Part shown: piece by piece, positions 1,496-6,767 of the stretch
Layout: the number at the start of each line of letters is the position of its first letter
How positions within the stretch are numbered: the first letter of the stretch is position 1
From: Octopus sinensis
Lineage: Eukaryota
Assembly (NCBI RefSeq): GCF_006345805.1
Contig: NW_021829264.1
Location: 1-6,767 of the forward strand
Direction: 5' to 3'
DNA length: 6,767 nucleotides
Made by a program: the position numbers

Positions 1496-4400
1496 ATAAT
1501 AATATTAGGGAGTAAAACTCCAAACTTACAGGGAATATTCAATTTAGTATTAAATCAAATTTCTCAATGTAAATATATATATATATAAATAAATAAGAGA
1601 AAAACCATTATTATGCAATTCAAACAATGATAGACATAAACCAAATCATAAGAAAAAATAAAATATACTATAAAATATATAACTAGATCACAAAAAGTAT
1701 AAAAATGAATAAATATATATAGTAAGTAAAAAGACTACGTACGTTTCATGGCTAGAATTTAAATTCTAATTAAATTAAACTTTAATTTAATCAAAAGACA
1801 ATTCAATTTGAAAGTATAGTAACTCCTCAGGTCAACAATAATTGCAATAATAGTTAAATAAATAATTAAATTGAATTAAACAATATTTATAAAAGAAGCA
1901 TAGTTTCCTAGTCCCTTGTTCTGAAGGTTCTCAGAATCCAGCCAGCCATATGCCTGCACACTGCAACCATATTGGCGATATGGATATGAAACTAGGTATT
2001 GTTGCTTATATCAATCCAAGATCATGCTCCGTATGTGATTTTGGCTCATACAATTCACTTAGACACGCCACATTTTATTGCTGTTTTCGTGGAGAGGGCT
2101 CTGTTGGTTGCTACAGCCTGGTCTCTTTCTTTTAAGAAGTCATGCAACCACTCTCTGAGGTTTCCAGTTATGCCAGGTCTTATTAGTTTGTGACTTATCG
2201 TCACATGATCAACCTTACCAAAGGCCACGTTAGAGCGATTTTTTAACTGTATCACCACCTAGTCACTGTACTGCAAAATCTGTTTAAGGCAGCTTCTTCC
2301 AGAGTGAGAGCCATTGCCGGGTGTCAGGAAACAAGTAGATACCTTCAAGGAACGCAATTAGTTTCTTCCTGACAATGTGCTCCACGATTTTGCTGACATG
2401 GCTGGTTAGAGAGACAGCTTTATACTTTTTAGCATTTGCTGTTACCTTCTTTATAAATAGGGCATATTATTCCTTACTTTAACCTTTTGGAAAGTCTTTC
2501 TGATGCAATGAAGATCTGGAAGAGAATCCGAAGTAGTCTTGCTAGAACCCCTTTGTATTTCTTTAGGAAGATTGCTGGGAATCCATCAGAGCCTGTGAAT
2601 GAGTTTGAGCTCACTTCAACAATGGCTGATATCACATCCGTTTCCTCTATTTTGATGCTATCAATAATAGTCATTTCTTTGTGTAGAGCTGTGGAGCCAA
2701 AGAATCATTCAGGCGTAACTACTTGCAAGTGTCCCAAGGGAGTGGTAAAACACTCTTGTATTGCACATTGAGTATTTCACTGATCCTCTGGGGGTCTGTA
2801 GTTGGCGAGCCATTTTCTTCGACTAATGGCCTTATTTTATACTATACTGGTGCACACCTTTTTGCATATCCATAGAAGAATTTAGGGTTTGTCTTAATAT
2901 TTTTGACAGCCCTGGCTTCCTTTTCTGCCCTATCCTTTTCAAGAGAGTATTTGAGTTCACTTTCGATCTCGAGCATTGTTTGTTTGAGACGGGATCGTTT
3001 GTTATCCTTTAGCGACCCCTTTAGACGATTTGAGATTTTTGCTCGTTGTCTCCTAAGTAAATAATCTACATAATTCCTCGTCTCTTTAATATAGAACTGT
3101 AGTGCCCCAGCATGGTCACAGCTCGTGAGCTGAAACAAGATAAAATTTTAAAAAATAAAAAATATATATATATATACATATATATATGCATTCTTATATA
3201 GATATATATATATATATATATATATATTTCAACAATTGAGGGTAGACTATATGAGAGAGGTTTCAACAATTGAGGGTAGACTATATGAGAGAGGTTTTCT
3301 TTAAGTATTAGAAATAGTTTTTAAAAAGTTTTCTTTGGCTCTTTTCTAATGAGTTCAGTATGCGGCAAGTAATTTATTTTACTAAGCCCTTTATATAATG
3401 TAATAATTTGAATTCGCCTTAATGTCCTTTTGCATACTGAATACTTGGTGAAATTGATTAATTAATTAATTTTACCCTCAATTGTTGAAATTATAATTCA
3501 TCTCTCTCTATATAGCCGGGATTTTACCGAAAAAAGCATAGTGTTTACTGATTTTAACCCACGCTGGTGGAAAGGGGAGAGCAGAAATTCTCGCTTGCAT
3601 ATTTGGGTTTGTTGGCACTGTAGTTACGAGCAGATCTTCTGACAGCGAGAGGAAGCCGAAAGGGTATGCTCCATTTCAGTGTTTTCAAATCCAAACCAGG
3701 GAGTTCTGAGCTATGATAGAAATGTCGTGTTGACTATCTTGAAACGTACGTTCTCAAATAACCTTTGCACTTGATTTTTAATGTCTCTACCCCCATATTT
3801 GCGTGAGTTGAATTGAGCAAAAACTATATGAGAGAGGTTTTCTTTAATATTAGAAATAGTTTTAAAAAAGTTTTCTTTGGCTGCTATTTCTAATGAGTTC
3901 AGTATGCGGCAAAGTAATTATTTTACTAAGCCCTTTATATAATGTAATAATTTGAATTCGCCTTAAATGTCCCTTTGCATACTGAATACTTGGTGAAATT
4001 GTTAAGTAATTAATTTTACCCTCATTGTTGAAATATAAATCATCTCTCTATATATGCCGCGGATTTTACCGAAAAAAGCATAGTGTTTACTGATTTTAAC
4101 CCACGCTGGTGGAAAGGGGAGAGCAGAAATTCTTCGCTTGCATATTTGGGTTTGTGTGGCACTGTTAGTTACGAGCAGATCTTCTGAAGCGAGAGGAAGC
4201 CGAAGGGTATGCTCCCACTTTCAGTGTTTTCAAATCCAAACCAGGGAGTTCTGAGCTGATGATAGAATGTCGTGACTAATCTTGAAACGTACGTTCTCAA
4301 ATAACCTTTGCACTTGATTTTTAATGTCTCTACCCCCATATTTGCGTGAGTTGAATTGAAGCAAACACTATATGAGAGAGGTTTTCTTTAAGTATTAGAA

Positions 4401-6767
4401 TAGTTTTAAAAAAGTTTTCTTTGGCTGCTATTTCTAATGAGTCAGTATGCGGCAAAGTAATTTTTTCTAAGCCCTTTATATAATGTAATAATTATTATAT
4501 ATATATATATATATATTATATATACATATATATAATGCATTCTTATATGTACATATATATATATATATATATATTGCGCGTAACCCGTAAGGACACTGAC
4601 AGTTCAGATTATAAAATATTGAATCTGATTTCGACATTAAATAAAATGAAAGTTTATTTTATGATGATTCAGTTAAATATTTCAATTTGTACGTGTCATG
4701 AAAGGTGTGGTTTACAACCTCATGGTTTAGGTTTTAGAAATAGAACTTTCAGGGTAAATTTGAATTCTAGTAACAGCATTTATTTGTGGTATATGTGCAC
4801 ACGTCTACAAAAATGCAAAAGGAATTTTTAAATAACGTGTATATAAAATTAAAGGGAAATATTTTCCCGGAGTATTTTCCCATTATGCACTGTTTTGGCT
4901 ATTTATGAAGGTACCCCCAATAACCGCCTATCTCGAGAATCCGTGGTACGATTCATGCGAAACTTGTTTTTTTTCCGTTTGTATTTACATTTCAGGTGTA
5001 CCTTACTTTCAGAGCATTTTCCCATTATGCGCCGGTCTGACTATTAAATAACAGACAAGTATGCACGTATGTACACAAACAAAACCGGCGAAACTACGGA
5101 CAAATTGCTACTTTTTAAACAAATTTTCAACATATACCTCTAAGCGGATGTGGTTTCAGAATATATAGGGATTTATGGGAAATAGTTTTTTTTCCAGCGT
5201 GGAGGGAGAGGAGGTTCGAAAAATTCAAACAATGAGACTTCTCCATAACTTTCAGAAAAATGGATATCATTTAATGGAATTTTATACAAATACCTTTCAA
5301 AGGAGATAGATTACGATTCTAATGAAATTCGCAGGGAAAATATTTTCCGAGGGGATGGGGAGAGGATTTTCGAAAAACGGAGTTTCGGTCCAGAAAGACC
5401 AAATATGTTGGAACTACTCCGTTTTGACGGGCATTTCTCGACCTGTTTTTTAAAAACCACGGTCTTGGAATTGATGTGGGCGGGGAACATCTTTTTATGA
5501 AAACAAAATGTTTAAAAATATTTTATACACACCCCAACCTTTTTCAATCCCATTCCAACCGATTTTGGCCAATTTGTTGCACTTCAAAACGATGGGAGGA
5601 ACTTTTTGGTAAAATAGAATTGAAAAAATTCAGAGGAAAGTGAGTGAATTAAGAGATATTTGACAGTTGCTTCTAGCACATCTCAAAACAGCCCTGCTCT
5701 TTTCTTTCTCACTCTCAAGTGAATTTATGCTTTTCTATATCCTTCTTCCCCATAAATACATTTATATGCTACAAAAAATTTGAAACAATATGATTTTTTA
5801 AAAACCCTCTCCCTAACCAGATTGTCTCTATAAATTAAAATTCTGGAGAACCTGAGAAGGTCATTGCTGGCATTTATCCACACTGATTATAAAACAGTGT
5901 TCTGCAAACGATAATTCATTTTAATAGCATACTTTTCAGTTAGAAAATATTCTTCTTACACACACAGCTTCGCTTAATTGAGGTGGGGACAAGAAACAAA
6001 ATTACAAATTTTTAGTTGCTTATATTCCACCAACGAACCACGCCTACTTTTCAGTTAGAAAATGTTTTTTTTCTTACATGCACACGGCTTCGTTGATTGA
6101 GGTGGGGGTAAAAATTAACATTACAATGTTTTGTTGTTCCTATATCCCATCAACAGACGACATGTATGTTACTTCGGCAACATCATTCCATAAAATTTTT
6201 AATGGTAAAAAATTATTGAGAAAACATAAATGTAAGAGTGAAAACGGATGTGGGATTGGGATGTGCTGGAAATAACAGCCAAATCTCCATTGAATCGTGC
6301 AGTTTTCCCTCTGAAAATATTTACATTTTGTTTACCGAAAAGGCTCCTCCCATGGTTTCTAAATTTTAAAAAAATGACCAAAATCTGTCCGGAGTGTAGA
6401 TGGTGAGGAATTTCCAAAATATTTCAACACTTTTTTTTCCAAAAAAAATGCCCCTCATAATTTCGAAGGCTGTGGTGAAATAAAAATGGGGAAAATCCCC
6501 GTGGAAACAGGGTCGTTCCCACTTATTTGGTCTTACTGATCCTAAACTCAGTTCTTTCGTAACTACTGTCCTCACCACATTGGAAAAAGCTTCCCTTCAA
6601 ATTTATAATCATAATCTATTCCGTTTAAACGGTATTTGTATACAATTTCATTAAAATAAATCAATTTTCCTGAAAGTTACGAGGGAAAAATTCGGATCAT
6701 GTGAATTTTGGAAAACTTCTCTCCCGACTACATTGGAAAAATTCTTTTCTATAAATCCCTATATACT

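What the first reader, a model, noticed from the sequence alone, without database searches (positions are those of the whole stretch)
3281..4493. Tandem 543-bp hammerhead-ribozyme repeat: candidate retrozyme / self-cleaving circular-RNA retroelement
Seen: 2.2 near-identical non-coding units, each full unit with an HHR motif; predicted cleavage sites (after 3752 and after 4295) are 543 nt apart. The array begins and ends at points unrelated to the cleavage site. Known: type I HHRs occur in Penelope-like pseudo-LTRs and in metazoan non-LTR retrozymes, whose tandem transcripts self-cleave to monomers that circularise. Inferred: a + strand transcript would release a ~543-nt monomer. A permuted, non-integer copy number is what reverse transcription around a circular template would leave, probably using a Penelope RT in trans. 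The class is known, but this unit is longer than the few-hundred-nt animal retrozymes I recall, so it could be an undescribed (probably cephalopod) family.
Basis: partly seen in the sequence, partly recalled or inferred. Interest (0 to 1): 0.88.

Follow-up and report, generated by a model that had tools for sequence, protein, structure and literature searches.

The report
Tandem repeat with hammerhead-like ribozyme motif
A 543-base non-coding sequence sits as 2.2 head-to-tail copies inside a TA microsatellite and carries, intact in one copy, the signature of a self-cleaving hammerhead RNA, so it is a plausible but unproven member of the known "retrozyme" class of small mobile elements.

Summary
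The repeat is real: units 3281-3823, 3824-4366 and a partial unit 4367-4493, period 543-545. The units are 94.2% alike. They differ by 26 single-base gaps and only 6 substitutions, which looks like long-read assembly noise.

A complete type I hammerhead consensus exists only in unit 2 (core 4256-4262, GAAA 4284-4287, palindromic helix III 4287-4294, U17 4295). Unit 1 lacks G5.

With the palindromic helix III typical of animal hammerheads, the motif arose once in 28,979 shuffled windows. However, no Rfam hammerhead model matches it, even at E<=10 on 69 nt. Helix II opens with a U.U mismatch, and the hammerhead fold is 7.6-11 kcal/mol worse than competing folds.

The array lies in (TA)n, between duplicated ~50-bp flanks, behind an exact 34-bp x2.1 leader. 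Published Penelope-like insertions look similar. The neighbouring RT fragment is an APE-type LINE, not Penelope.

A 543-nt unit is within the published retrozyme range of 51-972 bp.

Verdict: candidate retrozyme-like element. It would be a new member of a known kind. Activity, copy number and host are untested.

The parts
3174..3226 (.). Left copy of the duplicated flank (TA-rich, with the unique 14-mer ATGCATTCTTATAT at 3186-3199). It resembles a target-site duplication.
   Evidence: D1 (40 nt, 93% to 4535-4574). alignment; the 14-mer is exact at 3186 and 4535 only.
3227..3297 (+). Leader: an exact 34-bp x 2.1 tandem. Each copy is an 18-mer, which is the inverted copy of unit positions 3473-3490, followed by the first 15 nt of the unit. 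It may be a 'tail' or inverted fragment of the insertion.
   Evidence: period 34, 2.1 copies, 100% matches; the 18-mer is at 3227 and 3261 on + and at 3473 on -, and 0 of 200 shuffles reach 3 matches. I3.
3281..3823 (+). Repeat unit 1 (543 nt).
3707..3756 (+). Unit 1 counterpart of the hammerhead-like motif. The core box reads CU-AUGA (3711-3716, G5 absent). GAAA is at 3741-3744, ACGUACGU at 3744-3751 and U17 at 3752.
   Evidence: gap at 3712/4258; no CTGANGA in unit 1.
3824..4366 (+). Repeat unit 2 (543 nt).
4252..4299 (+). Complete type I hammerhead consensus. Helix I is 4252-4255 paired with 4296-4299 (4 bp). The core CUGAUGA is 4256-4262. Helix II is 4263-4283 (U.U, then A-U, G-C, A-U, with a 13-nt loop). 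GAAA is 4284-4287. Helix III is 4287-4294 (2 bp plus the palindromic loop GUAC). U17 is 4295, and the predicted cut is GUU^C after 4295.
   Evidence: Chance estimates. No Rfam hammerhead hit.
4367..4493 (+). Partial unit 3 (127 nt). It ends in the AT-rich stretch TATATAATGTAATAATT, directly against (TA)n.
4522..4574 (.). Right copy of the duplicated flank (14-mer at 4535-4548).
   Evidence: D1, 31, 46.
3473..3512 (+). Internal segment of the unit that is the inverted counterpart of the leader and of the unit's first 14 nt. It closes a long foldback over the AT-rich first ~235 nt of the unit.
   Evidence: I3, and the MFE structure.

Best explanation
The array is one insertion of a roughly 543-nt non-coding, non-autonomous retroelement of the non-LTR retrozyme / Penelope-dependent kind.

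Inferred steps:
1. A multimeric or circular + strand RNA was reverse-transcribed at a nick in an AT-rich (TA)n tract.
2. This left 2.2 head-to-tail units, a duplicated target of about 50 bp, and a short composite leader at one end.
3. The unit carries a type I hammerhead of the weak kind that depends on forming a dimer: a 4-bp helix I, a helix II opened by U.U, and a 2-bp helix III with the palindromic loop GUAC.
4. In a tandem transcript, two copies could pair through ACGUACGU into a double hammerhead and cut at GUU^C, releasing a 543-nt monomer (3753-4295). A cellular ligase could then circularise it.

Shown here: the repeat, its flanks, the motif and its rarity under shuffling, and the above-random folding of the + strand.

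Inferred only: an RNA intermediate, cleavage, a circle, and which reverse transcriptase acted.

As assembled, only unit 2 has an intact core.
For: Motif and RNA:
- The repeat is real, with 2.23 units.
- A full core and all three helices are present in unit 2.
- With a palindromic 6/8-nt helix III the motif appears in 1 of 28,979 dinucleotide shuffles of the window. Without that condition, 738 motifs arose in the 28,979 shuffles, about 0.025 per window.
- Short stems of 1-2 bp capped by small palindromic loops are the stated norm for animal type I hammerheads, which work as dimers in tandem repeats (PMC4209133, passages).
- The active axolotl HHR_Amex2 has the same U.U mismatch and 2-bp/tetraloop helix III. 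It cleaved 22% in 1 h as a monomer, and dimeric constructs cleaved much more efficiently (PMC7229834, section 15).
- GC is 0.35-0.36; retrozyme repeats are under 45-50% GC.
- + strand monomer: MFE -142.9 kcal/mol, z -3.48, 0 of 100 shuffles as stable. - strand: z -2.72.

Insertion signature:
- The flanks are duplicated.
- The target is (TA)n.
- There is a 34-bp leader with an inverted piece of the unit.
- Published PLE insertions show partial tandems, AT-rich or (TA)n targets, a 30-40-bp tail and an inverted 5' fragment (PMC8557442 passages; PMC11167929 passages).
- A 2026 preprint argues that animal retrozymes are non-autonomous PLE derivatives.
Against: - No Rfam 15 hammerhead family matches: not at E<=1 over the window, nor at E<=10 on 161 nt or on 69 nt.
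- A stricter scan found 0 motifs in the window, this one included. It required 3 consecutive pairs from 10.1/11.1, with or without the bulged base typical of PLE hammerheads.
- The motif lacks the G10.1-C11.1 pair that PMC4209133 calls highly conserved.
- U17 (a GUU triplet) is, from my recall, an uncommon and slower cleavage triplet.
- With the hammerhead helices enforced, the MFE is -3.1 against -10.7 kcal/mol free for the monomer, and -17.5 against -28.7 for a linked dimer.
- Unit 1 lacks G5, and the core/helix II stretch 3712-3735 holds 6 of the 26 gap columns.
- My helix I and helix II thresholds were set after seeing the motif.
- No second copy of the unit is in the window. The best outside match is 13 nt, E 0.045.
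- No PLE ORF is in the window. Of the 57 frames of 50 aa or more, 39 were scanned against Pfam. None matched any retroelement or endonuclease domain, and the only hits were two weak unrelated ones below their cut-offs.
- If the 34-bp leader is the PLE 'tail', which marks the RT start, the element's sense strand would be the - strand and the hammerhead would be antisense.
Confidence: 0.5

Rival explanations
1. This is a partial-tandem insertion of a non-autonomous element mobilised by a Penelope-like (for example (TA)n-targeting Naiad) or other target-primed reverse transcriptase. The hammerhead-like motif is dead or coincidental and plays no part. The tandem comes from copying a multimeric linear transcript.
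For: - The same insertion anatomy as in the best explanation.
- Naiads prefer (TA)n, lack hammerheads, occur in Octopus spp. and have non-autonomous relatives that insert head-to-tail in several copies (PMC8557442 passages).
- Hammerhead-dead mutants did not affect PAc insertion in vitro (PMC11167929).
- No Rfam hammerhead hit.
- Unit 1 has a broken core.
- The hammerhead fold is disfavoured.
Against: - A motif with a palindromic helix III arose in only 1 of 28,979 shuffled windows.
- It sits exactly where dimer-dependent hammerheads are expected.
- The host was not identified, so the presence of Naiads is an assumption.
Confidence: 0.25
2. This is a local DNA-level tandem duplication (replication slippage or unequal exchange) of resident, non-mobile sequence next to unstable microsatellites. 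No RNA intermediate was involved, and the hammerhead-like motif is chance.
For: - The region is rich in slippage products: (TA)n on both sides and an exact 34-bp x2.1 tandem at the array's edge.
- Only 2.2 copies are present.
- No other copy is in the window.
- No protein-database trace of the unit was found.
Against: - The duplicated flank, with the exact 14-mer ATGCATTCTTATAT, lies outside the array on both sides rather than between units. This fits an insertion better than in-place duplication.
- The motif is rare under shuffling.
- The + strand folds better than random.
Confidence: 0.15
3. This is an assembly artefact. A noisy long-read assembly expanded or mis-joined a single unit, or a different copy number, and the unit differences are consensus errors.
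For: Differences between units are dominated by single-base indels: 26 gap columns against 6 substitutions, with 14 of the 26 next to the same base. Units 2 and 3 differ by 7 gaps and 0 substitutions. From general knowledge, natural divergence shows the opposite ratio.
Against: - Three junction-consistent copies lie in register, and the unit-to-unit junction is seen twice (3823/3824 and 4366/4367).
- Noise explains the base differences, not the tandem itself.
- Reads could not be examined.
Confidence: 0.1

Closest known systems
Metazoan non-LTR retrozymes (Cervera & de la Pena 2020, PMC7229834; Li et al. 2026 preprint 10.64898/2026.07.22.740005)
   Same: A non-coding tandem repeat of a few hundred bp, low in GC, running from a dimer upwards. 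It has a type I hammerhead consensus once per unit, a duplicated target longer than 4 bp, and a + strand RNA that folds better than random. The unit length lies inside the reported 51-972 bp.
   Different: - Only one of the two full units has an intact core.
- Helix I is 4 bp where the canonical length is 6.
- Helix II opens with U.U and has a 13-nt loop.
- No Rfam hammerhead match.
- No evidence of a multi-copy family, of transcription or of circles.
Axolotl HHR_Amex2 retrozyme hammerhead (PMC7229834, section 15)
   Same: [quoted passage not shown] It is weak as a monomer and better as a dimer. It sits in a roughly 350-bp tandem repeat.
   Different: It comes from a vertebrate. Its sequence was not compared, because figures and supplements are not held. 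Amex2 has about 60,000 copies and proven cleavage; here there is one locus and no assay.
Penelope-like element pseudo-LTRs and their minimal hammerheads (PMC4209133; PMC8557442; PMC11167929)
   Same: Partial tandem arrangement, an AT-rich/(TA)n target, variable target duplication, a short extension at one end, an inverted fragment at one end, a short helix I (4-5 bp), and a palindromic helix III region.
   Different: - No RT/GIY-YIG ORF is attached or present in the window.
- PLE minimal hammerheads have a long helix II (6-8 bp), a bulged base after A9 and a conserved G10.1-C11.1, none of which is present here.
Hammerhead-bearing satellite DNA of newts, described in PMC7229834
   Same: A tandem repeat with a dimer-dependent type I hammerhead whose helix III has a palindromic loop.
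   Different: Satellites form very long arrays. This one has 2.2 units inside a microsatellite, with duplicated flanks.

Membership tests
Type I hammerhead ribozyme | Conserved core CUGANGA ... GAAA ... U-H in type I order | tested here: met
   Unit 2: 4256-4262, 4284-4287, U16.1 at 4294, U17 at 4295. This holds for unit 2 only.
Type I hammerhead ribozyme | Core intact in every unit of the array | tested here: not met
   Unit 1 reads CU-AUGA at 3711-3716. This may be an assembly indel, since 26 of the 32 differences between the units are single-base gaps.
Type I hammerhead ribozyme | Helices I, II and III closing the core | tested here: inconclusive
   Helix I has 4 bp, helix II has U.U plus 3 bp, and helix III has 2 bp plus the GUAC loop. 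The motif passes a relaxed descriptor and fails one that needs 3 consecutive pairs from 10.1/11.1. With the hammerhead helices enforced, the MFE is -3.1 against a free MFE of -10.7 kcal/mol.
Type I hammerhead ribozyme | Match to curated covariance models (the Rfam hammerhead families) | tested here: not met
   No hammerhead family at E<=1 (window) or at E<=10 (161 nt; 69 nt).
Type I hammerhead ribozyme | Short palindromic helix III allowing a double hammerhead in tandem transcripts (animal type I) | tested here: met
   ACGUACGU is a perfect 8-nt palindrome in both units. 1 of 28,979 shuffles gives a full motif with such a helix III. The feature is as described in PMC4209133.
Type I hammerhead ribozyme | Loop 1 - loop 2 tertiary contacts; self-cleavage | not testable with these tools
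   Needs a structure or a cleavage assay.
Type I hammerhead ribozyme | Covariation in helices among related copies | not testable with these tools
   No collection holding the host genome was available. Within one insertion the units are copies of one template and carry no information on selection.
Non-LTR retrozyme | Short non-coding tandem repeat, dimer to multimer, one hammerhead per unit | tested here: inconclusive
   2.23 units of 543 nt. Non-coding. The hammerhead is intact in 1 of 2 full units.
Non-LTR retrozyme | Low GC (<45-50%), no LTR/PBS/PPT | tested here: met
   GC is 0.352 and 0.361. There are no terminal long repeats other than the roughly 50-bp flank duplication. PBS and PPT were not searched for specifically.
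Non-LTR retrozyme | Target-site duplication longer than 4 bp when present | tested here: inconclusive
   A roughly 50-bp duplicated flank with an exact 14-mer. Its extent is blurred by (TA)n, and it is longer than I can document for this class.
Non-LTR retrozyme | Highly self-paired monomer RNA | tested here: met
   z -3.48, with 0 of 100 shuffles as stable. The circular fold is -138.4 kcal/mol with 61% of bases paired. The - strand also scores z -2.72, so part of this is DNA-level inverted repeats.
Non-LTR retrozyme | Dispersed multi-copy family; linear and circular RNA in tissues; PLEs in the same genome | not testable with these tools
   No host genome, reads or transcriptome were available.
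PLE pseudo-LTR | Flanks a PLE ORF (RT plus GIY-YIG endonuclease) | tested here: not met
   39 of the 57 frames of 50 aa or more were scanned, and no RT or GIY-YIG Pfam hit was found. The adjacent RT-like fragment 2474-2704(-) is related to a 984-aa protein with Exo_endo_phos plus RVT_1, that is, an APE-type LINE. The window is only 6.8 kb.
Satellite DNA | Long homogeneous arrays | tested here: not met
   2.23 units bounded by unique flanks.

The most novel reading that the evidence does not exclude
This is a previously undescribed retrozyme family, in what is probably a cephalopod, making 543-nt circular RNAs with an atypical hammerhead (helix II opened by U.U, a GUU triplet, dimer-dependent). 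It inserts into (TA)n as Naiad-type Penelope-like elements do. That would tie hammerhead-bearing retrozymes to a PLE clade that itself lacks hammerheads, suggesting that the ribozyme parasitises the PLE machinery.
Probability: 0.12. Interest if true: 0.55.

Novelty: new member of a known kind. Interest (0 to 1): 0.35.

Why it matters
If real, it would add a further host lineage to the retrozyme class. My searches of the open paper library listed no paper that reports hammerheads or retrozymes in cephalopods (listings only, supplements closed).

It would also be a clean single insertion. It keeps both target copies, an end 'tail' and an inverted fragment. That makes it useful for working out how Penelope-type enzymes copy multimeric or circular RNAs into microsatellites.

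It would not change the known picture of retrozymes. The unit length, tandem form, weak dimer-dependent hammerhead and low GC are all within published ranges.

Tried and rejected
- Rfam scans found no ribozyme of any class. The only hits were low-complexity miRNA-like matches in microsatellites, and weak archaeal C/D-box look-alikes over UGAUGA...CUGA (sR12 13.8 bits, E 0.28 on 69 nt). I take these as chance.
- TRF missed the array because of its 500-nt period limit.
- A second CUGANGA...GAAACGUACGU site on the - strand (1830 to 1736) passes only a very relaxed descriptor, which is expected 0.30 times per shuffled window. It shares just 12 nt with the unit (E 0.18-0.45). Rejected as chance.
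- The core variant UUGANAA (the U3-A8 covariation of PMC4209133) gave no motif.
- Searching the rest of the window for another copy of the unit found nothing longer than 13 nt.
- Protein-level traces of the unit: the frame 4002-4220(-) has no homologue among proteins of 39-126 aa, and the unit frames have no Pfam hits.
- Classifying the neighbouring RT fragment directly failed with Pfam, PDB and the word-indexed protein search. It succeeded only through phmmer against representatives followed by Pfam on the hits.
ARAGORN found no tRNA in the SINE-like element.
- The first double-hammerhead script gave an impossible energy because I paired helix I within each strand. The corrected cofold script crashed. 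A 12-A linker version worked.
- Genome contigs (bacteria and archaea only) and the phage, plasmid and E. coli collections were not searched, as they are irrelevant to an animal repeat.
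Full report
**1. The observation**

The window has no N. A head-to-tail repeat runs from 3281 to 4493. The units are 3281-3823, 3824-4366 and a partial third unit 4367-4493, spaced 543-545 nt apart (families D3-D14). Tandem Repeats Finder did not report it because its longest period is 500.

A global alignment of units 1 and 2 gives 524 matches, 6 substitutions and 26 single-base gap columns, or 94.2%. 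Of those gaps, 14 lie next to an identical base. Units 2 and 3 differ by 7 gaps and no substitution. Natural divergence is dominated by substitutions (general knowledge). An indel-dominated pattern points to consensus errors of a long-read assembly. Single bases in this window, including those of the ribozyme core, should therefore not be trusted.

**2. The hammerhead motif**

CTGANGA occurs once on the + strand (4256) and once on the - strand (1830). In unit 2 the full type I order is present:
- Helix I: 4252-4255 with 4296-4299 (4 bp).
- Core: CUGAUGA, 4256-4262.
- Helix II: 4263-4283 (U.U, then A-U, G-C, A-U, with a 13-nt loop).
- GAAA: 4284-4287.
- Helix III: 4287-4294 (A-U, C-G, loop GUAC; the whole ACGUACGU is a palindrome).
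- U17 at 4295, then C.

Unit 1 has the same helices I and III in two blocks that are 100% identical to unit 2 (39 nt and 81 nt, D11 and D5). Its core box, however, reads CU-AUGA, and 6 of the 26 gap columns fall in 3712-3735.

**3. Is the motif chance?**

I used a descriptor set to the motif's own helix lengths: helix I at least 4 bp, 3 of the first 4 helix II positions paired, and helix III at least 2 bp. It is met 0.025 times per dinucleotide-shuffled window and 0.0023 times per shuffled unit. That corresponds to thousands of chance hits in a gigabase genome, so the boxes alone prove nothing.

I then added the feature the literature gives as the norm for animal type I hammerheads: a 1-2-bp helix III capped by a small palindromic loop, which lets two copies form a double hammerhead (PMC4209133, passages). 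With it, the motif arose in 1 of 28,979 shuffled windows. The helix I and II thresholds were chosen after the fact, and one event gives a wide error. Even so, this is well below chance for one window, and the motif lies in a tandem repeat, the setting where such ribozymes act.

**4. Evidence against a working ribozyme**

- No Rfam 15 hammerhead family matches at E<=1 over the window, or at E<=10 on 161 nt or 69 nt.
- A scan requiring three consecutive pairs from 10.1/11.1, with or without the bulged base typical of Penelope hammerheads, finds nothing in the window.
- The G10.1-C11.1 pair, called highly conserved in PMC4209133, is replaced by U.U.
- With the hammerhead helices enforced, the best energy is -3.1 kcal/mol against -10.7 for the free fold. 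In the free fold, the 5' half of helix II pairs with helix III and the cleavage site.
- For two linked copies, the double hammerhead gives -17.5 against -28.7 kcal/mol.
- These energy models ignore tertiary contacts. I could not run a known active hammerhead as a control.

One precedent softens these points. The axolotl HHR_Amex2 is described with the same U.U at the base of helix II and a 2-bp helix III with a tetraloop. It cleaves 22% in an hour as a monomer, and dimeric constructs cleaved much more efficiently (PMC7229834, section 15).

**5. The unit as RNA**

- GC is 0.35-0.36. The first 235 nt are at 0.28 and the rest at 0.43.
- The AT-rich first part is a nest of inverted repeats (I3; structure).
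- The predicted monomer 3753-4295 folds to -142.9 kcal/mol on the + strand (z -3.48, 0 of 100 shuffles as stable). On the - strand it folds to -117.5 (z -2.72).
- As a circle the + strand gives -138.4 kcal/mol with 61% of bases paired.
- Six same-length control stretches of the window gave -97 to -146 kcal/mol on + (GC 0.32-0.43). The four of comparable GC (0.32-0.36) gave -97 to -121.
- The folding therefore fits a structured RNA, but part of it is plain DNA-level symmetry.

**6. The insertion site**

The array sits in a TA microsatellite. This may be the tail of a SINE-like 3' end, because 3107-3125 resembles 847-866 and both are followed by A/TA-rich runs.

About 50 bp are duplicated on the two sides (3174-3226 and 4522-4574). 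The duplication includes an exact 14-mer found nowhere else in the window (D1, 31, 46).

At the left edge lies an exact 34-bp x2.1 tandem (3227-3297). Each copy joins an 18-mer, which is the inverted copy of 3473-3490, to the first 15 nt of the unit. I could not derive a simple template-switch scheme for it.

The right edge stops in an AT-rich stretch of the unit, directly against (TA)n.

Published Penelope-like insertions show partial tandems, an optional 30-40-bp tail at one end, an inverted 5'-truncated fragment, variable target duplications and AT-rich targets. For the Naiad clade the preferred target is (TA)n. Naiads are reported in Octopus spp. and lack hammerheads (PMC8557442 and its preprint, passages).

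A purified PLE nicks AT-rich DNA on both strands and starts reverse transcription inside the RNA. It does not need hammerhead cleavage in vitro (PMC11167929, abstract and passages).

A permuted, non-integer array therefore does not by itself indicate a circular template.

**7. Neighbours**

No PLE ORF is visible. Of the 57 stop-to-stop frames of 50 aa or more, 39 were scanned against Pfam. None matched RT, GIY-YIG or any other retroelement domain. The only hits were two weak, unrelated ones below their cut-offs.

The RT-like fragments on the - strand (2055-3147) are frameshifted. The 76-aa piece 2474-2704 has 37 relatives at E<=1e-3. One of them, the 984-aa P0009, has Exo_endo_phos plus RVT_1 and aligns with the query just before its RT domain. 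This is an APE-type LINE, not a Penelope.

That the SINE-like element at about 497-880 is the common octopus SINE is only my recollection.

**8. Comparison and verdict**

The closest known class is the metazoan non-LTR retrozyme. The locus meets the tested structural criteria of tandem form, low GC, non-coding sequence and self-paired RNA. The target-duplication criterion is inconclusive. The locus meets the hammerhead criterion only partly.

The criteria that would settle membership could not be tested: a dispersed family, covariation among copies, cleavage and circular RNA.

The unit length is not unusual. Reported lengths are 51-972 bp, with a mean of 650 bp in ray-finned fish (preprint 10.64898/2026.07.22.740005, Results).

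My searches listed no open paper that reports cephalopod hammerheads or retrozymes. In one search, 4 papers held both terms and 2 were listed. One search returned listings only. Supplementary species tables could not be opened.

I estimate the following:
- About 0.5 that this is a retrozyme-like element with a genuine hammerhead, possibly decayed or mis-assembled.
- About 0.25 that it is a PLE-type partial-tandem insertion with an irrelevant motif.
- About 0.15 that it is a local duplication.
- About 0.1 that it is an assembly artefact.

It would be a new member of a known kind, of moderate-to-low interest.

Noticed in passing
window 2055-3147 (- strand): Frameshifted fragments of an APE-type LINE reverse transcriptase, 5' part. 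The piece 2474-2704 has 37 relatives at E<=1e-3. One of them is a 984-aa protein with Exo_endo_phos plus RVT_1. Pfam does not recognise the fragments themselves.
   Followed up: yes
window ~497-880 and 3098-3145: A SINE-like element and, just left of the array's microsatellite, a second copy of what looks like its 3' end (GTGCYCCAGCATGG...). The array's (TA)n target may therefore be a SINE tail. ARAGORN and Rfam find no tRNA. Identifying it as an octopus SINE is only my recollection.
   Followed up: partly
window 3281-4493, and generally: The repeat units differ almost only by single-base indels: 26 gaps against 6 substitutions. This suggests an unpolished long-read assembly, so base-level features anywhere in the window are uncertain.
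   Followed up: partly
window 1736-1830 (- strand): A second CUGAGGA ... GAAACGUACGUA site shares 12 nt with the unit's helix III region. It passes only a descriptor expected 0.30 times per shuffled window, and its helix II has just 2 of 4 positions paired. Probably chance.
   Followed up: yes
window 5162-5436 versus 6493-6765: Long imperfect inverted repeats (arms of 77 nt at 82%, 64 nt at 78% and 29 nt at 86%). They bracket about 1.1-1.5 kb, and the right arm reaches the window end. This could be two inverted copies of a repeat or a foldback element. The frames there have no Pfam hits.
   Followed up: partly
window 5927-6013 and 6042-6132: A direct repeat of about 90 bp, spaced 115-119 nt apart, 78-87% identical.
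   Followed up: no
window 4250-4281: The stretch UCUGAGCUGAUGAUAG...CUAAUC gives weak matches to archaeal C/D-box sRNA models (sR12 13.8 bits, sR30 9.1 bits, far below the gathering score of 38). Taken as chance.
   Followed up: yes
window 450-500, 660-720, 1013-1093, 1288-1500, 3162-3226, 4494-4574: Many microsatellites ((TA)n, (GA)n, (AC)n-like, TATG-like). They draw spurious miRNA-family matches in Rfam.
   Followed up: no
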